In this document: piece after piece, positions 2,202-33,982 of the stretch
Layout of the letters: each line of letters begins with the position of its first letter
Position numbering within the stretch: position 1 is the stretch's first letter
Assembly: GCA_000004985.1 (NCBI GenBank)
Contig: GG738893.1
Direction: 5' to 3' (one strand)
From: Naegleria gruberi
Lineage: Eukaryota
Length of the DNA: 64,000 nucleotides
Made by a program: the position numbers and the translations under genes
Notes under the pieces: generated by a model
The model's database searches: none
The model's input: the letters and a program-made list of their open reading frames with translations, nothing else
What the model was told of the DNA's origin: nothing

Positions 2202-3125
2202 ATGACAATAACCATTTTCAACAAGCCAATCAACACAAATTCACTCATCAAGAATCTGATCTTCCTCCTCATCCGAGCACTTTTCAATGGCCTTCAATGG
2301 GTAGGCTGGAGTTTGGCCGTTCTAATTTCTCAACAAATTATTCTTTCAGTACTCACAGGATGGCAAGAGCTACGAAATATTATAGTGCCCATTGCAATTG
2401 CCATCAATGAAATTGTATGCTCACAATGTTTTGGTAGAATTTTGTGTAGGCTTGAAATTAAATTTAATTTAATATTTAATATTAGTGATGATGATGAAGA
2501 GGAAAGGAACATGAATCGGAATACTAATAATAATAATGATAATAATAATAATAATATTAATGAAAGTGGTAATACTAGTAATAATCAAACAAATAGGAAT
2601 GAAAATGTGGAAGGAAATACATCAAAGGCTATCACTGCTGTCCATAAGAGCATGATTGGATGTGTGGCTTCGGGAATTGTTTTTGATTTTGTGGATAGAG
2701 CTATAGGAAATATCTATTCAGAATCGGGAATGTATGAAATTACCCTACTGATGAGATGTATTTGTGTGTTTGTGGCTGATAGATTTGTGTTTCATATTGT
2801 AATGGAGATTTTGGATAGGATTGAAGAACAACAATGGACCTTTTCTAATGAAATTTCGAATATTGAGGGTGCCTCATGTGCAGGAATGTCAGCAATTGCT
2901 TATAATTTAGCAACAGAGTTGGGAATTTACATTTGCAAAGAGCACATTGGTACTGATAATGATTGGTTTATTGGATTGTTTTGCATTCCATTTATTGCAG
3001 TTGCTACAGGAATAGGTCTAATAATTGGCGTATTGGAGGGAAAACTCTGGCAGATTTTGGATAGTGCTATGTATTCAAAAGTCCGTAACATAATGACGAG
3101 CAAGAGACATAACATTACTAATTAA
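2202..3125 (+). CDS. hypothetical protein with hydrophobic segments and an Asn/Asp-rich insert
   Basis: The 307-aa ORF starts with ATG. A poly-N/D low-complexity tract lies between predicted hydrophobic helices. I recognised no conserved domain. Confidence 0.35.
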   Translation: MTITIFNKPINTNSLIKNLIFLLIRALFNGLQWVGWSLAVLISQQIILSVLTGWQELRNIIVPIAIAINEIVCSQCFGRILCRLEIKFNLIFNISDDDEEERNMNRNTNNNNDNNNNNINESGNTSNNQTNRNENVEGNTSKAITAVHKSMIGCVASGIVFDFVDRAIGNIYSESGMYEITLLMRCICVFVADRFVFHIVMEILDRIEEQQWTFSNEISNIEGASCAGMSAIAYNLATELGIYICKEHIGTDNDWFIGLFCIPFIAVATGIGLIIGVLEGKLWQILDSAMYSKVRNIMTSKRHNITN

Positions 3126-3348
3126 TTTCTCCACTACAAATTATCAAAGCAAATAAAGCAATTCAATTTTGGAAGTCCCAACAATTCTTAAACGTAAATT
3201 GATAGCTTTACTGGTAGGCGGGGAGATACCACAACCTCTCAAATAACATCAAACACGAGATATTTACAAATGTGCATCACGTAACTGACACAGTTTGTAA
3301 TCATGCGAGCAATTACCTCAAATCTTGTCAATCCAAACATTTAAAAAA

Positions 3349-6300
3349 ATGAATATGAGCGAAGTAGGTGGCTCTGTAATAGCAGAGTCTGCTATTGAGT
3401 CTCAAATTAATAGAAATTCAGTTGTCAAGCAGGCCAACAACAAATTTACCTCAATGGTGCTATCTCTTCAGGTCAATACACCAAGAATTGGATGGAAATG
3501 GTACTTGATTTCATTGGCATGTATGATTATACAGTTGTGGAGCACCATTTTGCTTCCAACCTTGAATCAAACTTGGGGTTCGACTTCTAAACTGATTTTT
3601 GACATTCTGAATGTGCCTAATACATTCTTTGTACATTATTTAACTCATGACCAAGCAATAATAATTGCATACATTTGCGTTGGTTTTGTATTCCTTTGCA
3701 TAGCCATTGCATGTGCTTGTATTTGGTCCATCACAAATGCCACTAAGCACATCACCAAATTCAAATATCTATTATTTGTATTCGCCTCAATAGCTCAAAC
3801 GTTTTCCATATTTCTCCTTTTCAATTTTGTTGGTTTCTATGATTGCAGTATTACCAATATCAATGAAGATACATTAGAGAGGACGCTTTCTAGATTTCCC
3901 TCCAATTCATGTTTTAGTGATACAATTATTATTGCACTTTGCATAGCTGGTTCATGTGCTTTATTTGTATTGGTAATTCTCTCTCGATTGATTTCTCATG
4001 ATTTGCATCCTTTGAGCAATACTCCATTTGTTTCAATGACTCCAAAATTGATGGTCATGATGGATTTCGTTAATTTGTTTACAATGATTTTGTTATTTGT
4101 CATACCTCAACCTTATCTTTTCGTGACAAATGCCATTAATATGATCGCTTCATTAGCCATGATGATTGTTCATGGTAAATCTTGTCATTTTTTCAAACGA
4201 ATGGACAATTCATTATTTATGGGAGTATTGGCAGCAAGATTTGGAACTAGTTTGGGAAGTTTTGTAAATTCCTTAATTACCACACCCCTAATCAATATGC
4301 CAAATTCTGAGTCTTTCTCCCTTTATATTGGTTTTTCTACTACTATTGGTTTGGCTCTGATGTTTGCACTTATTGGATTTGTTGCTATTGAAATTTATAC
4401 AAGAATTGTTGTTAAATTAATTAGAGACATGACATTGACTGATTTCCTAGGTTTAATTCATTCTAATCAACCTCTAAATATTCACAAATCAAAGAAAGCA
4501 ATTATGAACTATATGGAAACCAAAGCGCAAATCTACATTCAAACATTCAAGTTGAAAAATACTCTACATCAATTGACAATGTTTTTCAGATTTGCCAACA
4601 AGTCAACTTATGAAATTTATAGTGGAGTTCAAGGTGATGATGGGTTGGATATTTATTTGAGTGATAAAGATCTCTCTCTAATTTATTTGAAAACTCTGTA
4701 CAATAGAAAATCAAGAGAAATTGACTTGTTGTACAATTTATCAACTCTAATGGCTTACGACCATTTTGGAGACGACGAATGTCATACACCGAAAGCTTTG
4801 CAAGTAATGAACAGAGTGTGCAAAAAATCAAGTTTTTGGAATCACTTGGATTATCATTATAGAGCTAAGGAAATTCAACAGTATGCAACTGACACTGGTA
4901 CAGCAGATGCAAGTCAAGAGAATGATGCAAAAATGTTACTACTCAAGGAGAATCAAGATAAGTTGTTATGCTTACACAGAGACTTCTGGAAAGAAATGAT
5001 CAATGAACCAGTCAAGCTGTCAAGTGTTCAGAAAATTTGTGAAAAGATATCCGATATTTCAGAAGAATGCGAAGAAACATTTATGGAAGCACTTTCAGAT
5101 CGTAAAAACAAAGCCTATCTAAGAATGTATGCAACCTATGTTGAATTATTCCATTTTGATAAGGATCTAGCTCAAGCAATTCACATGGAAGCTAATCAAC
5201 TCGACCAAGAAATGAAAGTTACTCAAAGCATTAACAAAATCAAAAAGAAGCAAGTAGTACCTAGTGCTTCTAGATCTTCTTTAAAATCCCTGTTCAGATC
5301 AAGAACCAGAATTAGAGAATCAATGACTGACCAAATGAGCGACGCAGGATCAGACGTTTCAAATCAAATTCCAAATGGGTTTACTGAACATTTTGACCAA
5401 TTTGATGATAGTGCAAGTGTTGCAGGTGATAATAATGCTCCTGAAGCTGCGGAACAAAAGAAGGATTACTTATTTAGAAATGCTTTGAAAGCTAGACGTC
5501 CAGAAGGTGTCAAGTATTTATTGTATTTCTTATTTTTGTTTTGTTGCGTTGCCATTATGACAGGTGGTTTGGTCATGTCAATAATCAATAGTTCCAAAAT
5601 TAAGCAAAATATCATTAATTTGAAAGATGTCTGTATTCCACAAACAGCTCCTCTTTCAATTATTAGAAATGTAAGAAATATGCAAAATTGGATTTATGTA
5701 TTCTTTGTGAAAAAGTATGGATGGCCTTCGAGCTTTGGAACCACAGCCACTGTTTCAAAAACCGTAAGTATCTCTTAAAGAATTCTGAATATTAAATGAA
5801 ATAGGAGTTCATGTCATACTTTAAGGAAAGGCTAGATAAAGACAAAGATGGTCTGTTAAGTTTGCTTGTATTGGGACAGGATATTCAATTTGATTTTGAA
5901 ACTTATACTCAATATGGTAAATCAATGTACCAAACCTACATTCCTAGCTCTTCTACGACTGGTACAAACTTAACATTTAATACCAAAGTATATATAGGAG
6001 AACCAGAATTGAGAAATGTCTCAGTTGTTGAAATTACCAACTCTATCATCAAATATCTCGATCTTATCAAAGACGATGATTTTCCACAAGCAGAATTAGA
6101 AAAGTTGCAAGAAATGGACCTAAACTCTGCTGCTGCCCAACAAGTTATTGATTCTATTCTTTCAAAACCGTTCATGTTTCCAATTTCCAATTACAATTTC
6201 ATGTATTTATGGTTGAACAAGTTTGGAATTACACACATCTATGAAGATTTTTGTAATGCCTACGTTGAAAGAAGCAAGAAATCTACTGTTACATTGATGG

Positions 6301-8715
6301 CTGGTTCAGAATACTATTTTTATGCAACTATTGGTTTGATGATCGTAATTGGATTGCTTCTTATCGCTTATATTCAATACGATTTATTATTCTTTAAAAG
6401 ATTAGTCAAATTAATTGAAAAGGAGCTGAACAAGGATGGTATTGGAAAAATTTATCAACAATTGAATAAGAAAACTTCTATGGAAGCTTCCTTAGATTCT
6501 AATATTGTTAGCAAATCACTTCATGCAAATGCTAGTTTAGTAATTGCAATTGCATTGCTTGCTGTGTTTATTCCATTATGTATTGGAATGTTATACTTGG
6601 AAACATACAAGAACGCAAAGAGTGCTCTATTTACTTTCACCAATGTTGGATTATCTTCAAATGTAATTGAACATTTACAGTTTGCTTCATTTTATTTGGG
6701 AGAAATTCTTACACTTTTTGGTGTAGCTCACTTATCCAATAACGATGCCAGATTGTTCAATAGCAAATTGTCAAGTGGAAATTTTGAACAAATTTACAAA
6801 TCATTGAGATATGAAACTGATTTTACTGCAGCAAATTAGTAAGTAGTTTTGGAATTTTAACAATTTACTAGAATCAATGTTCAGCCAAGAATTGATATAC
6901 GGAGATGTTACTAAACCTGATGATGATCCAGTAATTGGTTTGTATCCATCTTTGGATAAGCTACTCAAACAAGGAGTTGATAATTGTACTCTTTATTTAG
7001 AACAGCATAATTTAACTCTCACACTCAAAACGAAAATTCAGTACTGTACAGGAATTGATAAAGTAATGACTGATTTCCTAACTACCATTACACAGACCAG
7101 TGAGAATACTCGAGATTTCTATACAAAACAAAATGCTGTATTTGCTGCTAATGGAACAATTTTAGATCCAACTGAAATATTTATGGAACATTACAAGTTA
7201 AATGTAATGTCTCATCCTCTGAATGACAAACTATTGATATTCATGAATGAATTTGTTAGAGTCTCTTCAGAACTATCACTAATATTACTTTTAATATTTA
7301 CTTGTTTAGGATTTTTACTCACAGCAGTCATTGGAAGACTCATATTGGCAATGATCAAGAACAAATCAAATCAACTCTACCACACCAGAATGCTAATGAA
7401 CTATATTCCAGTAGAAATGTTAGATAGAAATGAAAAACTCAAAAATGTTGCATTATTTAACTCTTTCCCTAATGCACTAGTTGAAAAGTTGAATAGAAAA
7501 GGAAAAGAGGGTTCATCTGAAAGTGGATTTAATGGCGTTGCGAATATTATCAATTCTTCAGTTGATGGATCTGCTTTGTTAAATGAAAGTGGAGATATTG
7601 AGATTTTCAACCCAGCAGCACATCGAATGTTTAATTCAACTTCAGTCGATGTATTGGGTACAAAGCTTTGTTCTTTATTTGAGGAATCGATTCAGGAAAC
7701 TATTAGAAAGACATTTGAATCCATAATAGAGCAATCTAAGAAATCTTATAATTCTGGAGGAAATGGACTCGCTCAGGAAACATTAGAAGCTGAATGTATG
7801 AGAAGAAATCAAACTAAATTCCCTGCCAAGATTAGTCTATTCACTACTCATCTTTCAGATCGTGGAACTATTGTTGTTTGTACCATTAAGGATGTGACCT
7901 CAGAGAAGAAACAACAAGCTCTCCTTGCGGACGAAAAGAAACACTCTGATAATCTACTCAAAAACATTCTTCCAGAAAATGTCGCTTCAAGACTAAAGAA
8001 GGGAGAAACATTCATTGCTGAAAAACTTTCTGATATTACATGTTTCTTCTCAGATATGGTTGGTTTCACAAAAATCAGCTCAACCATGCAAGCTACTGAA
8101 TTGGTGAAAATGTTAAATGCAGTAGTTAATGGATTTGACAATTTGACAGAGCTTTATGACCTGGAAAAGATTAAAACCATTGGAGATGCTTACTTTTGTG
8201 TAGGTGGTCTTCATGGTTCTTCAGATCACCCAGAAAGAATGTTAAAATTTGCCATGTCAACCTTCCAAGTCATTAACGATTTTAATTCTGGAAAATTTGG
8301 AGTCATTCTAGAAAATGATAATCAACTCGATATCAGAATTGGTATCAACACAGGTTCTGCTCTTGCAGGTGTGATTGGAACCAAGAAATTTGCCTACGAT
8401 TTGTGGGGTGATACCATCAATACTGCCTCAAGAATGGAATCAACTGGTCAACCAGGAAGAGTTCAAATAAGCAGATCAACCTACGAAAGAGTTTATGATA
8501 TGGGATTGGAATTTGAGGAGAAACGAGTGGAAGTAAAAGGAAAGGGAATTATGCAAAGTTATTTATTGAGTGCACGTCATCACATAAGCACCAAGGTTGA
8601 CTTGATTATTCCAATCGAACAGAAAACACTCCAAGATTATGAAATTGACAATGAACCTTTAGAACAATTAAAACTAGATAATAACACATCGTCAAGTCAA
8701 AACTCAATGGAATAA
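3349..8715 (+). CDS. multi-pass membrane class III nucleotidyl cyclase (adenylyl/guanylyl cyclase family), 3 exons: 3349..5763, 5805..6838, 6885..8715
   Basis: Three consecutive long ORFs (3325..5778, 5811..6839, 6877..8715) are joined in frame by two introns: 5764..5804 (GTAAGT...ATAG, 41 bp) and 6839..6884 (GTAAGT...TCAG, 46 bp). The first ATG is at 3349; the track start at 3325 is TTG. Exon 1 has more than 10 hydrophobic helices. Exons 2 and 3 add more. The C-terminus is a class III cyclase homology domain (FFSDMVGFTKISS...KIKTIGDAYFCVGG...AYDLWGDTINTASRMESTG). Confidence 0.75.
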
Positions 8716-9159
8716 CTTGTTCTAAAGAATAAAATCAATAACATTTTTACAACACAATTTTGCATTTCTGCTTTGATCTGAAAAATCCAACCCAAATTTG
8801 TCCAAATGATTGCCTTGCTTAATTACGCGCCATTATTTCACCACAAAAAATACCTCAACTGCTCAGAGTTTCATTTCTCGCTCTTCATCACGTTTTTCAT
8901 ATCGGAGGATTTTTATTGTTGTTACTCTATTGTTGAAGGCACATCATCACGATGAAGAAGTATATTTCTGTATTATTATATTGTTATTGTTGGCTTGTTT
9001 GCAAATTGTTGATGCGCTTTCTATTCAAGTGAAAAACAACAAGGAAGATCCACTAATTCATGATGATGAATTTATTAGACAGTTAATCAGGCACAAAAGT
9101 ATTGGACTGCTGGAAGAAATGGCAAATTTAATGGAAAGAAGAAGTCGGATCTTGTCAGA

Positions 9160-10007
9160 ATGTTGGGAAAGTACAATGTCAAGATGATGACTTCATCACA
9201 AAATATTGTTGAACAACCGACAAGACCAGCAATATCATCATTGGATATTCCAACAAATTATACACTCACAACTGATCCAAAATATATGAATTGTACTCAA
9301 CTTCACAAGATTAGAGATCAAAGCCAATGTGCAGCTTGCTATGCGTTTGGAGTTGCTGAAATGGTTGCTGACAGATATTGCATTTCATCTCAAGGGAAGG
9401 TCAATACCATTCTTTCACCACAATTTATTTTGAGTTGTGATGAATATGAAGGAAATTGCTATGGTGGAGATATTGGAAATACTCTTCTCTATGTTAAAAA
9501 TTATGGAATTGTTACTGATAGTTGTCTTCCATTCCTTGCTAGAAATGGCTCCAATCTCAGTTGTCCGAACAAGTGTCTCGATGGATCTAATTGGAAATTG
9601 AGATACAAGGTAAAGAATCCAAATCAAATTGCTCAAGATGATATTCAAGGAATGCAACAAAGCATTTTACAAGGTGGATCAATCATTGCTGCCTTTCAAG
9701 TTTATGAAGATTTTGCTCACTACAAGGGAGGAATATATGTTCATACAGGTGGTGCTTACATTGGTGGACATGTTGTAAAGATTGTTGGATTTGGTGAAAC
9801 TCCAAGTGGAATTCCATATTGGGTTGTTGCCAATAGGTAAGTTTATTTGTTGCTTAATATAATAATATAATATTTATTGTACCCTTTCCTGTTAATCTTG
9901 CTAGTTGGGGAGTTGACTGGGGATTATCTGGTTACTTTTATATAATTAGAGGAAAGAATGAGTGTGGATTTGAAAGTTATATTTGGCAAGCTACTCCATC
10001 TCTTTAA
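9160..10007 (+). CDS. cathepsin B-like papain-family (C1) cysteine protease, mature region, 2 exons: 9160..9836, 9905..10007; 5' signal/propeptide exon(s) unresolved
   Basis: The active-site Cys motif QCAACYAFG is present, as is the His motif GGHVVKIVGFG. After intron 9837..9904 (GTAAGT...CTAG) the C-terminus reads [27 protein letters not shown], which is typical of cathepsin B. The upstream ORF 8810..9187 is in a different frame and probably encodes the pro-region. The ATG at 8952 gives a signal-like peptide that then hits a stop. Confidence 0.6.
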
Positions 10008-26076: not shown

Positions 26077-27525
26077 TTATTCCATGGCATCACCTGGTGA
26101 TTTAACTCCTGGAGACTTTTTGACTACTTTTGTTGTTACGGTGGCCTTTCTTATTATTCCTTTTTGTACAATTTGTGGTCGAGAAATAGGTGAAGAGGAA
26201 TAATCAGATCCATTATCTGATAGGGCAGGAGAATTGATTGGAGTTATTGGTGACATTGGAGATGTACCAAGAGAGTTTACAGTTGGAACTTTACGAATAA
26301 TCTTTCTGATTATTTTAACTGGTTCTGATGGAGAAGGATTTTGGTGGAGTGGAATGGAATCTATTGTATTTGGTGAATCACTGACCTCGTCATCCATAAC
26401 TGAGGAAGCATTGGAGAGCATTGAAAGAGTTCTATCGGTAGAGCATGACGATATCGATGATACTGAGCTCACAGATGAAGAGTAGAGAGAGTTATTTCTA
26501 TTGTTACTTCCGTTTTGTGAAATGATCGAACCATGATCTGGTTGTTTTGTTGTTGTCACTATAATCGATCCATTTGTGGTTGATGATGAAGATGGTGCAG
26601 TAGAGGAGTTCTTATTAGAATTTCTTCTCTTAAACGAGTGTCCTGTTGACAATGAATTTTGGTTTTCACCACCTGTTGCTGATTTGTGTGAATTTGAATT
26701 CTTTCTTCTTGATGTTACACTAGGAGGAGGCACATGTGAGCTTGCAAGCCAAATTAAATGATGCAAAACCTCATCAATCGACACATCATTCAGTGAAGCC
26801 TTTACTGTGGCCATCTGGAAAAGCCACCTCTTATTTGTATCAGCCGAATATCTAATCAACATTTCAGCAACCTCACAAGCTACTTGACTATTCTTTACAT
26901 TCATCGTAAGCCAAGATTGTTCCGTATTACTATTGTTAGCATTCAAATTTAATCGCAAGCCATCATCATTGCTGTTATTATTTGGCTTATTAAGAATTTG
27001 ATGATGATCGCGTGAGGAAGAGACAATAGAACGTGGCGAGGTTGATGTTGAGGCTTTTTTTCCCTCCAACATGATCTGTAAAAGATTGGCGCGCTTTGAT
27101 TCTTCCATAAAATGATAGAAAAGAACATGATCAAAGGCTACGGGTGAAGCATTGGAAGCAGCAGAGGACAGAAAGATTGGAAGTTGGCTCGATGAATTAT
27201 TATAGGAGGTAGATTGAATTCGGGAGGAGGTGGCTGGCTGTGGATGTTGTTGTTGTTCATTAGAAAAATTTAAAGATTGATTATTATTGTTATGATTTGA
27301 ATTTTGAATTGTTGTTGTAGTAGTAGCCGAAGATGATGAAGATAGAGTGATGGTATTAGAGGAGGAGAGAACGGAAGTTGGTGAAGGTGGAGTTTGGTGA
27401 AGGAAATGTGCTGAAGTCGATGATGTCGACATGTAACTACCGCTCATCATCATCATGTTGTTATTATTATTATTGGGAGGTGATGATTCAGGTAGTTGTT
27501 GATGAGGAGAACCATGATGAATCAT
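26077..27525 (-). CDS. Ser/Asn/Thr-rich low-complexity protein, hypothetical
   Basis: The 482-aa ORF starts with ATG. Composition is strongly biased, with one short non-repetitive central block. Confidence 0.35.
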   Translation of the reverse strand: MIHHGSPHQQLPESSPPNNNNNNMMMMSGSYMSTSSTSAHFLHQTPPSPTSVLSSSNTITLSSSSSATTTTTIQNSNHNNNNQSLNFSNEQQQHPQPATSSRIQSTSYNNSSSQLPIFLSSAASNASPVAFDHVLFYHFMEESKRANLLQIMLEGKKASTSTSPRSIVSSSRDHHQILNKPNNNSNDDGLRLNLNANNSNTEQSWLTMNVKNSQVACEVAEMLIRYSADTNKRWLFQMATVKASLNDVSIDEVLHHLIWLASSHVPPPSVTSRRKNSNSHKSATGGENQNSLSTGHSFKRRNSNKNSSTAPSSSSTTNGSIIVTTTKQPDHGSIISQNGSNNRNNSLYSSSVSSVSSISSCSTDRTLSMLSNASSVMDDEVSDSPNTIDSIPLHQNPSPSEPVKIIRKIIRKVPTVNSLGTSPMSPITPINSPALSDNGSDYSSSPISRPQIVQKGIIRKATVTTKVVKKSPGVKSPGDAME

Positions 27526-29900: not shown

Positions 29901-30815
29901 TCATTTCTTGGCGAGCCTCCTCAGTGGTAATGATACTTCTTCCTCTATACCGTCTACTTGTTTTCTCTTCCATTGTTGTGGAACTGGCTCTGACATCTCA
30001 GCTAGGTCTTCAATCTCCTCTGGAGTTGGTAATGGCTTTGTGTGGTGCTTGTCATTGAGGAGGTAACAAGTGGTCATTCCCTTTCCTTTAACTTCAATGT
30101 AACGTTCCTCAAATTCAAATCCCAAATCATGAACACGTTCATAGGTCGATCTGCTGATTTGAATTCTTCCTGAGAGTGATGTTGATTCGATTCGAGAAGC
30201 TGTATTCACTGCATCACCCCACAAATCATAAGCAAACTTTTTAGTTCCAATCACTCCTGCAATTACTGAACCAGTGTTAATTCCTGCTCTAATATTAATT
30301 TGTGTTGTTGGATTTTTAACATTAAAGTCATGAATCGCATCAAATGTTCCCATTGCAAATCTCAGGATGCAGATTGAGTATATCCAATTCCACTAACACA
30401 GAAATAAGCATCTCCAATGGTCTTGATCTTTTCCAAACTATACTCATCTGTCAAGGCATCACTGTAAAGTTAGCTCTGTGAACCACTCTCAAAACAGATG
30501 TTCCATGTTTGATATTCAACATTGTATAATAGGAAGAGTTTACATTAGTTTCAGATTCTAACAGAATCAATCCACAACACTAGGTCACAAAAACCACACA
30601 ATCACAATTCCATATATGAAGAACAAATTTCTAGATTGATTGAAACTATTCTTTGGCAAGTGAATGGCCACACCATCATCATTCTTTATACCAATTTGGT
30701 GATATATTTTACCAACTACATTCTTGGATAAGGAAGTATTCATCAGATTCAGCACTTGTTTAAATTGAGACATTTCTCTTCTAGTTATCATGAGATAGAC
30801 AAGGAATGCAACCAA
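29901..30815 (-). pseudogene. decayed duplicate of the class III cyclase catalytic domain
   Basis: The minus-strand translation is recognisably similar to the catalytic domain at 7900-8600, but the matching pieces lie in different frames. The fragments are LMNTSLSKNVVGKI..., DCVVFVT*, ...MLN..., LYSDALTDEYSLEKIKTIGDAYFCVSGIG and then, in another frame, RFAMGTFDAIHDFN...IRAGINTGSVIAGVIGTKKFAYDLWGDAVNTASRIESTS...RSTYERVHDLGFEFEERYIEVKGKG. There are several stops and frameshifts. None of them can be removed by a GT..AG intron. Confidence 0.5.
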
Positions 30816-31257
30816 AAAGCTACCTAGAATGTGATTGTGACTTGATTGAATATTCTTTTCACAAAAGTGGTATTAGGTATTATTATTATCTGGGGAATTT
30901 TAGCAATTTCCATTTGATGAATCTCTCACCAATTGATGCTAGTACATTAGAAACTTCTACCAATGATGTGTTCTTCTTACCATACTCATGAGTTGTTTAT
31001 TGTCAATTTTGATTGCTTCAAACAGTCATCCTCTTCACAATGGAAACATCAACTTGTCAAGCCATGATGTTATTTTTCAATTGTTTTGGAATATTTGCAA
31101 ATGTAATCATTTCCAATGCATATGTATGAGATTTTTAGTAGTAAGAAATTGTAAAGGATAACAGATTACACTGTAATTCTATTACTGCGCTCCTTTAAGG
31201 CAGATTTTCTTAATCGCCCCTAACGCTCAATTATTTTTAAAAAATCTTAAAAAAAAT

Positions 31258-31993: not shown

Positions 31994-33982
31994 ATGACGC
32001 AACAAGGAGAGTCTTCAACCTCATCATCATTAGAGGAGGACCACAGCAGCACACAACAAGCACCACCAACCAACGAAGAGATGACATCTCCCTCACTACA
32101 ATCCATCACTTCTAATCTCACAGAAACCAACAACACACCTCAACAACTTGAATCCAATTTGACTATTGACAACAACTCACCTCCACCACAACAAACATCA
32201 CGAGAGGAAGAATTGGCAACAGCTTTAGCTCTTGAAGAACAATCAAAACAACAAATTGCTACCACTTCCATTATTGAAAAATCTTCATCACCATCAGCAG
32301 TGGAAGGAAAGGATGAAGCAATTTCTGAAAATGATGTGGAAGTTAATATTGTAAAGGTTTCTCCACGTTCTCCAAAATCTCCACGTAGAGAAAATTCACA
32401 AAAATTGATTGTTGAACCATCTCCTTCAAATGTTGTTGCTGGTAATGGTGCTGCTGCTGTTAATCAATCGACAACTTCATTGGAATCAACAGTTGGTACA
32501 GAGAGTACTCCATCCGAAGCAGCTAGTGATCCACAAAAGAACTTGTCGAATGGTAATCAGAAACATAATGAAACTTACCGAAAGAAATCTTCCAAGTTTC
32601 CAACAGCTCCAAAAGCCACACACGAAAATAATATTGGATTTTTCAGGTCGTTAAAGAATTATTTCCTCTCAATGATTTATGCTTCTCAAGCACAAAGACA
32701 AGAAACCAAAAATAATCTTACAAAATCTTTAGAATTATTTGAAAAATCACTCAATCATATGAAACAAACTAATAATAATGCAGCAGATGTCAGTTTGTTG
32801 CACTACAATATGGGAATAGTATGGGAAAAGATTTATTCCATTAAATTAACTGCCATGCTCAATGCTAGTTTCAGTTTGGACGATCATCAAAATGTTGCCA
32901 CCACAAAATCCTTCCTCCTCAGAGATAAAACCACTGAAACATTGACCGGACAGCAGAAAGTTGATCATTTGATTGAAAAGGATGGACCAACAGAAAATAA
33001 TACCAAGGAAAAGAAACAAAAAGTTGATCCTGAGAAATTACTCGAAACTAAACCTTCAATTATTGTAATGGATGGAGAATTGGGAGAATTTACTGGAAGA
33101 AGAACAACTGTTTCAGGAATTAACTACTTGACAAGTGTTACTGCAGAGGAAATTCTCTCACACTTGCAATCTGATTATGAATTGGACATGTTTTTGGAAT
33201 ATGAACAAGCAATGACTGAAAGATTCACTGAAAAGGATGAAATTTCCAATGCTGAGAGAGCCACAATGATCAAGAATATCTTTACTCACTATGCAGAGAG
33301 TTTGAGATTGAATCCAATGCATTTGGAAACCTATTTCCAACTTGCAAACATGTTCCAAAGAGTGGGCTTGTACTATCATGCTATAGCTCTATTTGAAAAA
33401 ACAGTTGAAATTCAAGAAGAATTCTCAGAGGGTTACAATTGTCTTGGTGTTTGTCTATTTAACATGGGTCAATTGGATAAGGCATCCTATTTTTACAATA
33501 AGGCACTCAAATATGATTTGAAAAATCCAATCATTTTTGCCAATTTGGGTGAAGTTTTATACGAAAGAGGAAAATTTGCAGAAGCTCTCAACATGTTTTC
33601 ACGTGCCTTTTATTTGGCTCCATCTCTTGGATCTTTGTATTGTTACTTTGGATTGTATTATTTGGAACAGGAGAAATCAAAGGAAAAGGCCCTTCAAATG
33701 TTTGAAAAGGCAATGGAACTCTCTCCTACTTCAGGAGATGTTCAATTCTACTATGGACGTTTTTGGTTAGAAATTGAAGATTATGATAAGGCCCTAACAC
33801 ATTTTGAAAGAGCAAGTCAATTAGTCCCACCAAATCGTCAAATGTACTATTATACAGGATTGGCATTGACAAAAGTTGGATCCAAGGAAGAAGCCATTTC
33901 AAATTTAAGTAAGTCAGTTGAATTGGCTCCAACATTGGATTTGTATAAGGAAACTTTGGAAAAGGTAAAAGCTGAGGTGTAA
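31994..33982 (+). CDS. TPR-repeat protein with a Ser/Thr/Gln-rich N-terminal half
   Basis: The C-terminal about 250 aa contain at least 6 TPR-like 34-aa repeats, for example YFQLANMFQRVGLYYHAIALFEKTVEI and AEALNMFSRAFYLAP. Confidence 0.6.
   Translation: MTQQGESSTSSSLEEDHSSTQQAPPTNEEMTSPSLQSITSNLTETNNTPQQLESNLTIDNNSPPPQQTSREEELATALALEEQSKQQIATTSIIEKSSSPSAVEGKDEAISENDVEVNIVKVSPRSPKSPRRENSQKLIVEPSPSNVVAGNGAAAVNQSTTSLESTVGTESTPSEAASDPQKNLSNGNQKHNETYRKKSSKFPTAPKATHENNIGFFRSLKNYFLSMIYASQAQRQETKNNLTKSLELFEKSLNHMKQTNNNAADVSLLHYNMGIVWEKIYSIKLTAMLNASFSLDDHQNVATTKSFLLRDKTTETLTGQQKVDHLIEKDGPTENNTKEKKQKVDPEKLLETKPSIIVMDGELGEFTGRRTTVSGINYLTSVTAEEILSHLQSDYELDMFLEYEQAMTERFTEKDEISNAERATMIKNIFTHYAESLRLNPMHLETYFQLANMFQRVGLYYHAIALFEKTVEIQEEFSEGYNCLGVCLFNMGQLDKASYFYNKALKYDLKNPIIFANLGEVLYERGKFAEALNMFSRAFYLAPSLGSLYCYFGLYYLEQEKSKEKALQMFEKAMELSPTSGDVQFYYGRFWLEIEDYDKALTHFERASQLVPPNRQMYYYTGLALTKVGSKEEAISNLSKSVELAPTLDLYKETLEKVKAEV

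What the first reader, a model, noticed from the sequence alone, without database searches (positions are those of the whole stretch)
3349..8715. Giant polytopic cyclase with adenylyl-type specificity residues
The N-terminal region of about 1550 aa contains many predicted TM helices spread over all three exons. It is fused to a single class III catalytic domain. The substrate-specifying positions read K (KIKTIGDAYF) and D (AYDLWGD). From memory these are the adenylyl-cyclase pair. Guanylyl cyclases have E and C at the same positions (KVETIGDAYM, YCLFGDTVN). With a single catalytic domain the enzyme must homodimerise. This architecture resembles neither mammalian tmACs (two catalytic domains) nor receptor GCs (kinase-homology domain).
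Basis: partly seen in the sequence, partly recalled or inferred. Interest (0 to 1): 0.55.

Follow-up and report, generated by a model that had tools for sequence, protein, structure and literature searches.

The report
Naegleria 12-helix membrane PAS adenylyl cyclase
This is a real three-exon Naegleria gruberi gene for a 1759-residue, 12-helix membrane protein ending in a PAS sensor and one adenylyl-cyclase-type catalytic domain; it is one ordinary member of a large, annotated but unstudied family of such enzymes in Naegleria and its relatives.

Summary
Window 3349-8715 (+) is one gene of three exons (3349-5763, 5805-6838, 6885-8715) with two short GTAAGT...AG introns, and it encodes 1759 aa. 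The DNA is Naegleria gruberi. The public model of this gene (1061 aa) is truncated and mis-spliced.

Architecture:
- eight predicted TM helices
- a cytosolic TPR_TmcB helical domain
- four further TM helices that bracket two extracytoplasmic regions
- a PAS domain
- a signalling helix
- one class III catalytic domain

All canonical catalytic residues sit in the single domain: D1540, D1584, K1580, D1655, N1662 and R1666. K and D align with the substrate-specifying Lys and Asp of adenylyl cyclase 9 C2. The enzyme should therefore act as a dimer with two active sites and make cAMP.

The architecture is not unique. At least 25 collinear proteins of 1400-1800 aa exist. The ten full-length ones looked up are annotated models from N. 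gruberi, N. fowleri, N. lovaniensis and Acrasis kona. K/D is nearly invariant across 46 family domains. The N-terminal 8-TM module matched no solved fold. Its TPR part links it to Dictyostelium TmcB, which is described as a regulator of the cAMP pathway. That link is the only lead worth following.

The parts
3349..5763 (+). Exon 1 (aa 1-805): N-terminus, TM1-8, TPR_TmcB domain, disordered linker, TM9, start of extracytoplasmic region 1
   Evidence: Continuous ORF. ATG at 3349. Homologues align from about aa 8 to 804.
5764..5804 (+). Intron 1, 41 nt, GTAAGT...TAG, phase 0
   Evidence: The homologous gene on L001 has a 44-nt intron at the aligned position.
5805..6838 (+). Exon 2 (aa 806-1149 plus 2 nt): rest of extracytoplasmic region 1, TM10, cytosolic loop, TM11, start of extracytoplasmic region 2
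   Evidence: P0008 aligns in one HSP over aa 815-1656.
6839..6884 (+). Intron 2, 46 nt, GTAAGT...CAG, phase 2
   Evidence: The acceptor at 6871 gives an in-frame TAA. The public model P0001 uses the same acceptor at 6884. The L001 homologue has no intron here and reads through.
6885..8715 (+). Exon 3 (aa 1150-1759 plus TAA stop): rest of extracytoplasmic region 2, TM12, PAS, signalling helix, catalytic domain, C-terminal tail
3493..4461 (+). Eight-helix membrane module (aa 49-371)
   Evidence: AlphaFold2 helices H49-71, 100-129, 135-161, 192-216, 233-251, 254-278, 284-314 and 321-371, with block pLDDT mostly 80-95. Hydropathy agrees. No solved fold matched.
4477..5247 (+). Cytosolic all-helical TPR-like domain (aa 377-633). 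The Pfam TPR_TmcB match covers aa 524-623 (nt 4918-5217).
5530..5586 (+). TM9 (aa 728-746)
   Evidence: Hydropathy 2.48. Model helix H719-761.
5587..6317 (+). Extracytoplasmic region 1 (aa 747-976; spans intron 1)
   Evidence: Topology inferred from the cytosolic position of PAS and the catalytic domain and from TM parity. It carries 3 N-x-S/T sequons.
6318..6374 (+). TM10 (aa 977-995)
   Evidence: Hydropathy 2.43. Long helix in the model of homologue P0008.
6537..6593 (+). TM11 (aa 1050-1068). It follows the conserved cytosolic loop KDGIGKIYQQLNKK.
   Evidence: Hydropathy 2.95. Loop motif conserved in A1/A3.
6594..7278 (+). Extracytoplasmic region 2 (aa 1069-1281; spans intron 2), helical, with the conserved WxxLxYG...NC...C motif
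7279..7335 (+). TM12 (aa 1282-1300)
   Evidence: Hydropathy 2.74. Model helix.
7543..7899 (+). PAS domain (aa 1370-1488)
7900..8016 (+). Signalling helix / cyclase-transducer-element-like segment (aa 1489-1527; ...LLKNILPENVASRLKKGE...)
   Evidence: Sub-threshold HNOBA C-terminal match at aa 1492-1520, E 0.022. Single long helix in the homologue model. 77% identity to the L001 homologue against 37% overall.
8017..8571 (+). Class III nucleotidyl cyclase catalytic domain (aa 1528-1712). Codons: metal Asp D1540 (8053-8055) and D1584 (8185-8187); specificity K1580 (8173-8175) and D1655 (8398-8400); transition-state N1662 (8419-8421) and R1666 (8431-8433).
   Evidence: Pfam PF00211 E 2.4e-52. PDB alignments to AC9 C1/C2, AC8, AC5 and mycobacterial Cya. 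Residue positions. Conservation.

Best explanation
Window 3349-8715 (+) is a single three-exon Naegleria gruberi gene. It encodes a 1759-aa integral membrane adenylyl cyclase of a multigene family known so far only from heteroloboseans.

Shown:
- the gene structure
- the domain order: 8 TM, cytosolic TPR_TmcB domain, TM9, extracytoplasmic region 1, TM10, short cytosolic loop, TM11, helical extracytoplasmic region 2, TM12, PAS, signalling helix, one class III catalytic domain
- the presence in that one domain of both metal-binding aspartates, the Lys/Asp adenine-specifying pair and the Asn/Arg transition-state pair.

Inferred from established class III cyclase enzymology: active sites form at a dimer interface, so the protein works as a dimer. 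A homodimer would have two equivalent ATP sites, as in mycobacterial Rv1625c/Cya. The product would be cAMP.

Inferred mechanism: the N- and C-termini are both cytosolic. Signals perceived by the helical extracytoplasmic bundle, by the cytosolic PAS domain, or by both are passed through TM12 and the conserved coiled signalling helix. This changes the relative orientation of the two catalytic domains and so the cAMP output. The N-terminal 8-TM plus TPR module is an additional regulatory or scaffolding unit of unknown input.
For: Organism and locus: 100% identity to a N. gruberi predicted protein.

Gene model:
- ORFs, canonical splice sites and a clean 1759-codon CDS.
- A single 850-column HSP to P0008 crosses the exon 2/3 junction.
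- The spliced gene on L001 gives 1764 aa, collinear end to end, with an intron at the position of intron 1.
- At least 25 representatives of 1400-1800 aa carry the N-module, mid-module, PAS and catalytic domain in the same order. The ten full-length ones looked up are annotated models from N. gruberi, N. fowleri, N. lovaniensis and Acrasis kona, and further full-length Naegleria models sit in the clusters of the shorter hits.

Domains: Pfam.

Catalytic residues:
- Alignment to AC9 C1 (metal Asp) and C2 (ekiKtig, yDiwgdtvNiasRm).
- 44-46 of 46 family domains keep each residue.
- The E/C-to-K/D switch converts a homodimeric GC into an AC (PMC5967339).

Topology: hydropathy and charge distribution and AlphaFold models with pLDDT 72 and 78.

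Membrane anchors of class IIIa ACs can act as receptors (PMC4821796).
Against: - There is no transcript evidence for this gene. Splicing rests on homology and on canonical signals.
- No biochemical data exist for any family member, so substrate, dimer state and regulation are predictions.
- The mid/C-terminal structure was modelled on a 47%-identical homologue, because a spliced sequence could not be submitted.
- Four-helix-bundle similarity is generic: de novo designed bundles score about the same.
- The PAS domain has no sequence relative in the PDB, so no cofactor can be proposed.
- The 8-TM module has no structural relative, so its role is a guess.
- More than 20 paralogues share very similar signalling helices and catalytic domains, so heterodimers are possible.
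Confidence: 0.8

Rival explanations
1. The three ORFs are three separate genes: a TmcB-like membrane protein, a small two-TM protein and a PAS-cyclase. On this reading they are not exons of one gene.
For: ORF 2 and ORF 3 each contain an in-frame ATG near their start. Prokaryote-style gene callers and some N. fowleri models split homologous loci into separate proteins. The public N. gruberi model omits exon 2 altogether.
Against: - The gaps are only 41 and 46 nt and have perfect GTAAGT...AG boundaries.
- Dozens of annotated homologues are single collinear proteins of 1400-1800 aa.
- The homologue on L001 reads through the exon 2/3 junction without interruption.
Confidence: 0.03
2. The enzyme is a guanylyl cyclase or a dual-specificity cyclase, despite the K/D pair.
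For: Databases label relatives 'Guanylate cyclase domain-containing protein'. Substrate choice in class III enzymes is not always fully predicted by two residues (general knowledge). Receptor and soluble GCs are significant PDB hits.
Against: K1580 and D1655 align with the adenine-binding Lys and Asp of AC9 C2. The best PDB hits are all ACs. The K/D pair is sufficient to turn rhodopsin-GC into an AC with no detectable cGMP (PMC5967339). No family member has the E/C pair: 45/46 have K and 46/46 have D.
Confidence: 0.07
3. The protein functions mainly as a heterodimer with one of its many paralogues, giving combinatorial receptors, rather than as a homodimer.
For: The family has at least 25 representative clusters at 50% identity. 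The signalling helix and catalytic domain are highly similar: 76-77% identity to the L001 homologue and near-identical consensus motifs.
Against: Every residue needed for a complete site is present in each chain, so there is no complementation pressure of the kind seen in mammalian C1/C2 or sGC alpha/beta. The single-domain relatives Rv1625c and rhodopsin-cyclase are homodimers.
Confidence: 0.12
4. The locus is a non-functional or decaying copy, like the cyclase remnant 21 kb away.
For: A clearly decayed paralogue exists in the same window. There is no expression evidence for this gene.
Against: The reading frame is intact over 5280 nt, the splice sites are intact and all catalytic residues are intact.
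Confidence: 0.04

Closest known systems
Heterolobosean TmcB-PAS-cyclase paralogues and homologues (e.g. N. gruberi XP_002670998.1, XP_002682792.1, XP_002672713.1, XP_002671034.1; N. fowleri KAF0972842.1, KAF0974595.1; N. lovaniensis KAG2393812.1; Acrasis kona KAL0483827.1)
   Same: They have the same collinear order of N-module, mid-module, PAS and catalytic domain, and the same K/D catalytic signature. This gene is a member of that family.
   Different: It is a distinct paralogue: 41% identity or less in the N-module to the nearest N. fowleri cluster. Its own public model (1061 aa) lacks aa 1-269 and about 425 internal residues (aa 725-1149, i.e. TM9-TM11).
Mycobacterium tuberculosis Rv1625c / Cya (class IIIa membrane AC; PDB 7yzi, 1yk9, 5o5k relatives)
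   Same: It has a single catalytic domain with all six canonical residues, a polytopic membrane anchor, a helical transducer before the catalytic domain and a homodimer with two sites.
   Different: Rv1625c has only 6 TM helices and no PAS, no TPR and no large extracytoplasmic domain. Here there are 12 TM helices and about 1500 aa of extra modules.
Mammalian membrane adenylyl cyclases (AC9, AC8, AC5)
   Same: They are the best-scoring solved relatives of the catalytic domain (E 1e-52 to 1e-64). The K, D, N and R residues align to C2 and the metal Asp residues to C1.
   Different: The mammalian enzymes are pseudo-heterodimers of 2 x (6 TM plus catalytic domain) with one active site. This protein has one complete catalytic domain and an unrelated membrane part.
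Bacterial (especially cyanobacterial) PAS/GAF/response-regulator-linked class III adenylyl cyclases
   Same: They share the PAS-helix-catalytic-domain cassette. Identity to the catalytic region is 45-52%.
   Different: They are soluble or simply anchored and lack the TmcB-like and mid membrane modules.
Dictyostelium TmcB (tiny macrocysts protein B; Pfam PF25474 TPR_TmcB)
   Same: The TPR domain at aa 524-623 meets the Pfam threshold. TmcB is described as a regulator of the cAMP pathway (PMC12750705, citing Muramoto et al. 2005).
   Different: As far as I know, TmcB is a stand-alone protein without a cyclase domain. Whether its membrane part is homologous to the 8-TM module here could not be tested.
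Other protist cyclase fusions (Paramecium/Plasmodium K+-channel-AC, apicomplexan P4-ATPase-GC, fungal rhodopsin-GC, trypanosome receptor ACs)
   Same: They follow the same principle: a class III domain fused to a large membrane or sensor module. Rhodopsin-GC also has 8 TM helices and a homodimeric single catalytic domain (PMC5967339; the rest is from my own knowledge).
   Different: No fold similarity of the 8-TM module to rhodopsins, channels or transporters was detected. The membrane module here is separated from the catalytic domain by about 1100 residues.

Membership tests
Class III nucleotidyl cyclase (Pfam PF00211) | Catalytic domain matches the family profile above the curated threshold | tested here: met
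   177.7 bits against a cut-off of 21.9, aa 1528-1712, profile positions 3-182 of 183.
Class III nucleotidyl cyclase (Pfam PF00211) | Two metal-binding Asp residues plus the transition-state Asn and Arg | tested here: met
   D1540, D1584, N1662 and R1666 align to AC9 C1/C2. Each is conserved in 44-46 of 46 family members.
Adenylyl (not guanylyl) cyclase specificity | Lys and Asp at the two purine-specifying positions (Glu and Cys/Ser in GCs) | tested here: met
   K1580 and D1655 align with 'ekiKtig' and 'yDiwgd' of AC9 C2. The functional meaning of the pair comes from PMC5967339. Enzymatic product: not testable here.
Class IIIa subclass (mammalian ACs/GCs, Rv1625c) | Closest relatives are class IIIa enzymes, and a cyclase-transducer-element helix precedes the catalytic domain | tested here: inconclusive
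   The best PDB hits are AC9, AC8, AC5 and mycobacterial Cya. The pre-catalytic helix is conserved (77% identity) and helical. It matches the HNOBA C-terminus only below threshold (E 0.022). No formal subclass phylogeny was made.
Mammalian-type tmAC | Two catalytic domains (C1, C2) and two 6-TM bundles in one chain | tested here: not met
   One catalytic domain only. The TM helices are arranged 8+1+1+1+1.
Receptor guanylyl cyclase | Single TM helix, kinase-homology domain and E/C specificity pair | tested here: not met
   No kinase domain in Pfam. 12 TM helices. K/D pair.
Heterolobosean TmcB-PAS-cyclase family | Collinear homology over the N-module, mid-module, PAS and catalytic domain | tested here: met
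   Global alignment to the 1764-aa L001 product.
TmcB family (Pfam PF25474 TPR_TmcB) | TPR repeat domain matching the profile above the curated threshold | tested here: met
   41.6 bits against 27, aa 524-623. Also found in paralogues P0133 and P0137.
TmcB family (Pfam PF25474 TPR_TmcB) | Homology of the membrane part to Dictyostelium TmcB itself | not tested
   No TmcB sequence could be retrieved. The profile search failed and the AlphaFold database library was unavailable.
PAS domain | Profile match above threshold and the PAS fold | tested here: met
Four-helix-bundle (4HB_MCP-like) extracytoplasmic sensor | Antiparallel four-helix bundle between two TM helices, with structural similarity to chemoreceptor ligand-binding domains | tested here: inconclusive
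GPCR / microbial rhodopsin-type 7-8 TM receptor | Structural similarity of the N-terminal TM bundle to 7TM receptors | tested here: not met

The most novel reading that the evidence does not exclude
The N-terminal 8-TM plus TPR_TmcB module may be a previously unrecognised membrane sensor or regulator that acts directly on class III adenylyl cyclases. Its covalent fusion to a cyclase in Heterolobosea would then be a 'Rosetta stone'. It would explain how the stand-alone Dictyostelium TmcB regulates the cAMP pathway: by binding and controlling an adenylyl cyclase. The 8-TM bundle would also represent a new membrane fold with no solved relative.
Probability: 0.2. Interest if true: 0.55.

Novelty: new member of a known kind. 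Interest (0 to 1): 0.3.

Why it matters
There are three reasons, all modest.

- It corrects a public gene model from 1061 to 1759 aa. The correction restores 269 N-terminal residues (TM1-5 and most of TM6) and an internal block that holds TM9-TM11.
- It documents that Naegleria, including the pathogen N. fowleri, and Acrasis carry a large family of about 1500-1800-aa, 12-TM, PAS-containing, AC-type cyclases. Nothing functional is published on them as far as my searches reached. They are candidate environmental receptors feeding cAMP signalling in organisms that switch between amoeba, flagellate and cyst forms.
- The fusion with a TmcB-type module gives a testable hypothesis for how Dictyostelium TmcB touches cAMP signalling.

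None of this overturns anything. The catalytic chemistry and the principle of sensor modules fused to a class III domain are textbook.

Tried and rejected
- Acceptor at 6871 for intron 2: it gives an in-frame TAA, so it was rejected in favour of 6884.
Exon 1 alone was used instead.
- The full-length query in the word-indexed search gave only 7 hits. The profile of N-modules gave only the self hit. These were dead ends caused by candidate pre-selection.
- P0004 (1842 aa, unknown protist) looked architecturally similar by eye. Its N-terminal part is not detectably homologous: BLASTP shows similarity only in the catalytic domain and hhalign gives probability 3.5%. It was dropped.
- The AlphaFold database fold library was unavailable.
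- The PAS domain against PDB sequences gave no hit at E<=0.01, so no cofactor can be inferred. The LOV reading was rejected because I saw no flavin-binding Cys motif when reading the sequence.
- In alignment A1, MAFFT misplaced the isolated exon 2 fragment. Pairwise and global alignments were used instead.
- Literature searches for TmcB and for Naegleria cyclase architecture found only genome-level counts of cyclases. The primary TmcB paper is not held.
- The upstream ORF 2202-3125 is not conserved next to the homologue on L001 and has no Pfam family. It was treated as an unrelated neighbour.


Full report
**Source and locus**

The window is AT-rich (about 33% GC). The product of the region is 100% identical to a 'predicted protein [Naegleria gruberi]' of 1061 aa (P0001). 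The window is therefore N. gruberi nuclear DNA.

**Observation**

Three ORFs lie on the + strand at 3325-5778, 5811-6839 and 6877-8715. Reading the junctions gives the following.
- The first ORF runs into GTAAGT at 5764. A TAG acceptor ends at 5804. This is a 41-nt, phase-0 intron.
- The second ORF runs into GTAAGT at 6839. The first acceptor (6871) would create a TAA. The next acceptor, CAG ending at 6884, restores the frame. This is a 46-nt, phase-2 intron.
- Joining 3349-5763, 5805-6838 and 6885-8715 gives a 5280-nt CDS with a single terminal stop, encoding 1759 aa.

The public model P0001 starts at an internal Met (aa 270). It skips from about aa 724 to aa 1150 and uses the same acceptor at 6884. 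It therefore lacks TM1-5, most of TM6 and TM9-TM11.

**Is it one gene?**

Four results say yes.
- P0008 is an 840-aa ORF from an environmental, Naegleria-like contig. It aligns in a single HSP with aa 815-1656 of my product (46.7% identity over 850 columns), straight across the exon 2/3 junction.
- That contig (L001, 7.8 kb, 34.5% GC) has three ORFs in a row: an 821-aa ORF with TPR_TmcB, then the 840-aa PAS-cyclase ORF, then a 97-aa ORF with the rest of the cyclase domain.
- Splicing the L001 ORFs at canonical sites gives a 1764-aa protein that is collinear with mine end to end (37% global identity). It has an intron at exactly the aligned position of my intron 1 and no intron at the position of my intron 2.
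- A filter-free HMMER search of 1.84 billion representative proteins with exon 1 alone found 77 hits with E<=0.001 and 59 with E<=1e-10. At least 25 of them are 1400-1800 aa long and carry the N-module, mid-module, PAS and catalytic domain in the same order.

The ten full-length hits I looked up are annotated models of N. gruberi, N. fowleri, N. lovaniensis and Acrasis kona. The shorter N-module-only hits I looked up share 90%-identity clusters with further full-length Naegleria models; two are N. fowleri models annotated without a cyclase, one of them adjacent to a PAS-cyclase model, and two come from unnamed environmental contigs. Most N-module-only hits are therefore fragments or split models, for example FDP41_003060 plus FDP41_003059. 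The 'three separate genes' reading is effectively excluded. Transcript evidence is still missing.

**Anatomy**

Pfam finds three domains above threshold.
- TPR_TmcB at aa 524-623 (E 1.4e-10)
- PAS_9/PAS at aa 1370-1488 (E 6.4e-13)
- one Guanylate_cyc domain at aa 1528-1712 (E 2.4e-52)

A sub-threshold match to the C-terminal helix of HNOBA lies at aa 1492-1520.

AlphaFold2 on exon 1, with 15 homologues, gave mean pLDDT 72 and values of 80-95 in the membrane part. It shows the following.
- eight TM helices between aa 49 and 371
- a small beta hairpin in the loop at aa 166-180
- an all-helical domain at aa 377-633
- a disordered linker at aa 635-700
- TM9

Hydropathy and a second model (homologue P0008 with 35 sequences, pLDDT 78) give TM10 (aa 977-995), TM11 (aa 1050-1068) and TM12 (aa 1282-1300). 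They also show long helices continuous with a helical extracytoplasmic bundle, then the PAS domain, one long helix and the catalytic domain.

The PAS and catalytic domains must be cytosolic, and the basic loops lie on the same side. The inferred topology is therefore N-in and C-in with 12 TM helices, and two extracytoplasmic regions at aa 747-976 and aa 1069-1281.

**Catalytic domain**

phmmer against the PDB puts AC9, AC8, AC5 and mycobacterial Cya first (E 1e-64 to 1e-42). Receptor and soluble GCs follow. The printed alignments show that the single domain combines two sets of features.
- The C1 features: metal Asp residues, ffsDmvgft against lfaDivgft and tigDay against tlgDcy.
- The C2 features: ekiKtig, yDlwgdtiNtasRm and KGKG.

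In my numbering these are D1540, D1584, K1580, D1655, N1662, R1666 and K1701. In 46 family domains each is conserved in 44-46 sequences. No member has the Glu/Cys pair.

The Glu-to-Lys plus Cys-to-Asp exchange converts homodimeric rhodopsin-guanylyl cyclase into an adenylyl cyclase with no detectable cGMP formation. The mutant crystallises as a homodimer with two sites (PMC5967339). The prediction is an adenylyl cyclase active as a dimer with two complete sites. The mycobacterial single-domain enzyme Rv1625c is the precedent (PMC4821796).

**Sensor parts**

Designed helical bundles score similarly, so the last group is only suggestive. The PAS domain has no sequence relative among solved structures, so no cofactor can be proposed.

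Conservation against the L001 homologue rises towards the C-terminus: 8 TM 21%, TPR 26%, extracytoplasmic region 2 47%, PAS 49%, signalling helix 77%, catalytic domain 76%. This pattern fits diversified input modules on a conserved output.

**Mechanism (inferred)**

1. A dimer forms through the catalytic domains and the preceding helices.
2. Input from the extracytoplasmic bundle and/or the PAS domain travels through TM12 and the signalling helix.
3. This sets the orientation of the catalytic domains and thus the cAMP output.

The N-terminal TmcB-like module is an additional regulatory or scaffolding unit. Dictyostelium tmcB is described as regulating the cAMP pathway during sexual development (PMC12750705, citing Muramoto et al. 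2005). The fusion seen here could reflect a direct TmcB-cyclase partnership. That is a hypothesis, not a result.

**Comparison and novelty**

The catalytic chemistry and the principle of sensor modules on a homodimeric class III domain are well known from Rv1625c, bacterial PAS/GAF cyclases and protist fusion cyclases. The catalytic region is 45-52% identical to cyanobacterial cyclases.

Genome papers already report that Naegleria encodes many membrane-bound cyclases: 'at least 81' in PMC9928731. Cyclase domains are also reported as abundant in Acrasis (PMC11589745). The exact architecture exists as many annotated models.

This locus is therefore a new, previously mis-modelled member of a known kind. 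I found no paper that describes the TmcB-PAS-cyclase architecture as such. The held library is incomplete, so this is not proof of absence.

**Verdict**

Interest is modest (0.3). The only lead with upside is the uncharacterised 8-TM/TPR_TmcB module and its possible functional link to cAMP signalling.

Noticed in passing
window 29976-30830 (- strand): A decayed paralogue of the same cyclase family. The C-terminal two thirds of a catalytic domain (55% identical, K and D intact) is preceded by recognisable remnants of the TM10-loop (..VGKIYHQIG..) and TM11 with an in-frame stop. Extracytoplasmic region 2, TM12, PAS, the signalling helix and the first metal-Asp region are missing. It is probably an internally deleted pseudogene.
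   Followed up: partly
window 3349-8715 versus public protein P0001: The public N. gruberi model of this gene (1061 aa) starts at internal Met 270 and splices from about aa 724 directly to aa 1150. It omits 269 N-terminal residues and about 425 internal residues, including TM9-TM11.
   Followed up: yes
window 9160-9840 (+), possibly with 8810-9187: A papain-family (Peptidase_C1) cysteine protease ORF lies immediately downstream of the cyclase gene (Pfam E 2.3e-36). It may have an upstream exon.
   Followed up: partly
window 2202-3125 (+): A 307-aa ORF lies 223 nt upstream. It has hydrophobic segments and an Asn-rich insert and matches no Pfam family. It is not conserved next to the homologous gene on L001.
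   Followed up: partly
L001 3867-3910 and 6425-6479 versus window introns: Intron positions differ between the two related genes. Intron 1 is shared. The window's intron 2 is absent from L001. L001 has an extra 55-nt intron inside the catalytic domain (just before ..KKFAYDLWGD..) that the window gene lacks. This indicates recent intron gain or loss in the family.
   Followed up: partly
catalytic region, window 8017-8571: The catalytic domain is 45-52% identical to those of cyanobacterial response-regulator-, GAF- and PAS-linked adenylyl cyclases. This hints that the PAS-helix-cyclase cassette has bacterial affinities. No phylogeny was made.
   Followed up: no
window 31994-33982 (+) and 26077-27525 (-): A 662-aa ORF whose C-terminal half looks TPR-like by eye, and a 482-aa Ser/Asn-rich low-complexity ORF. 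They flank the cyclase remnant. Neither was analysed.
   Followed up: no
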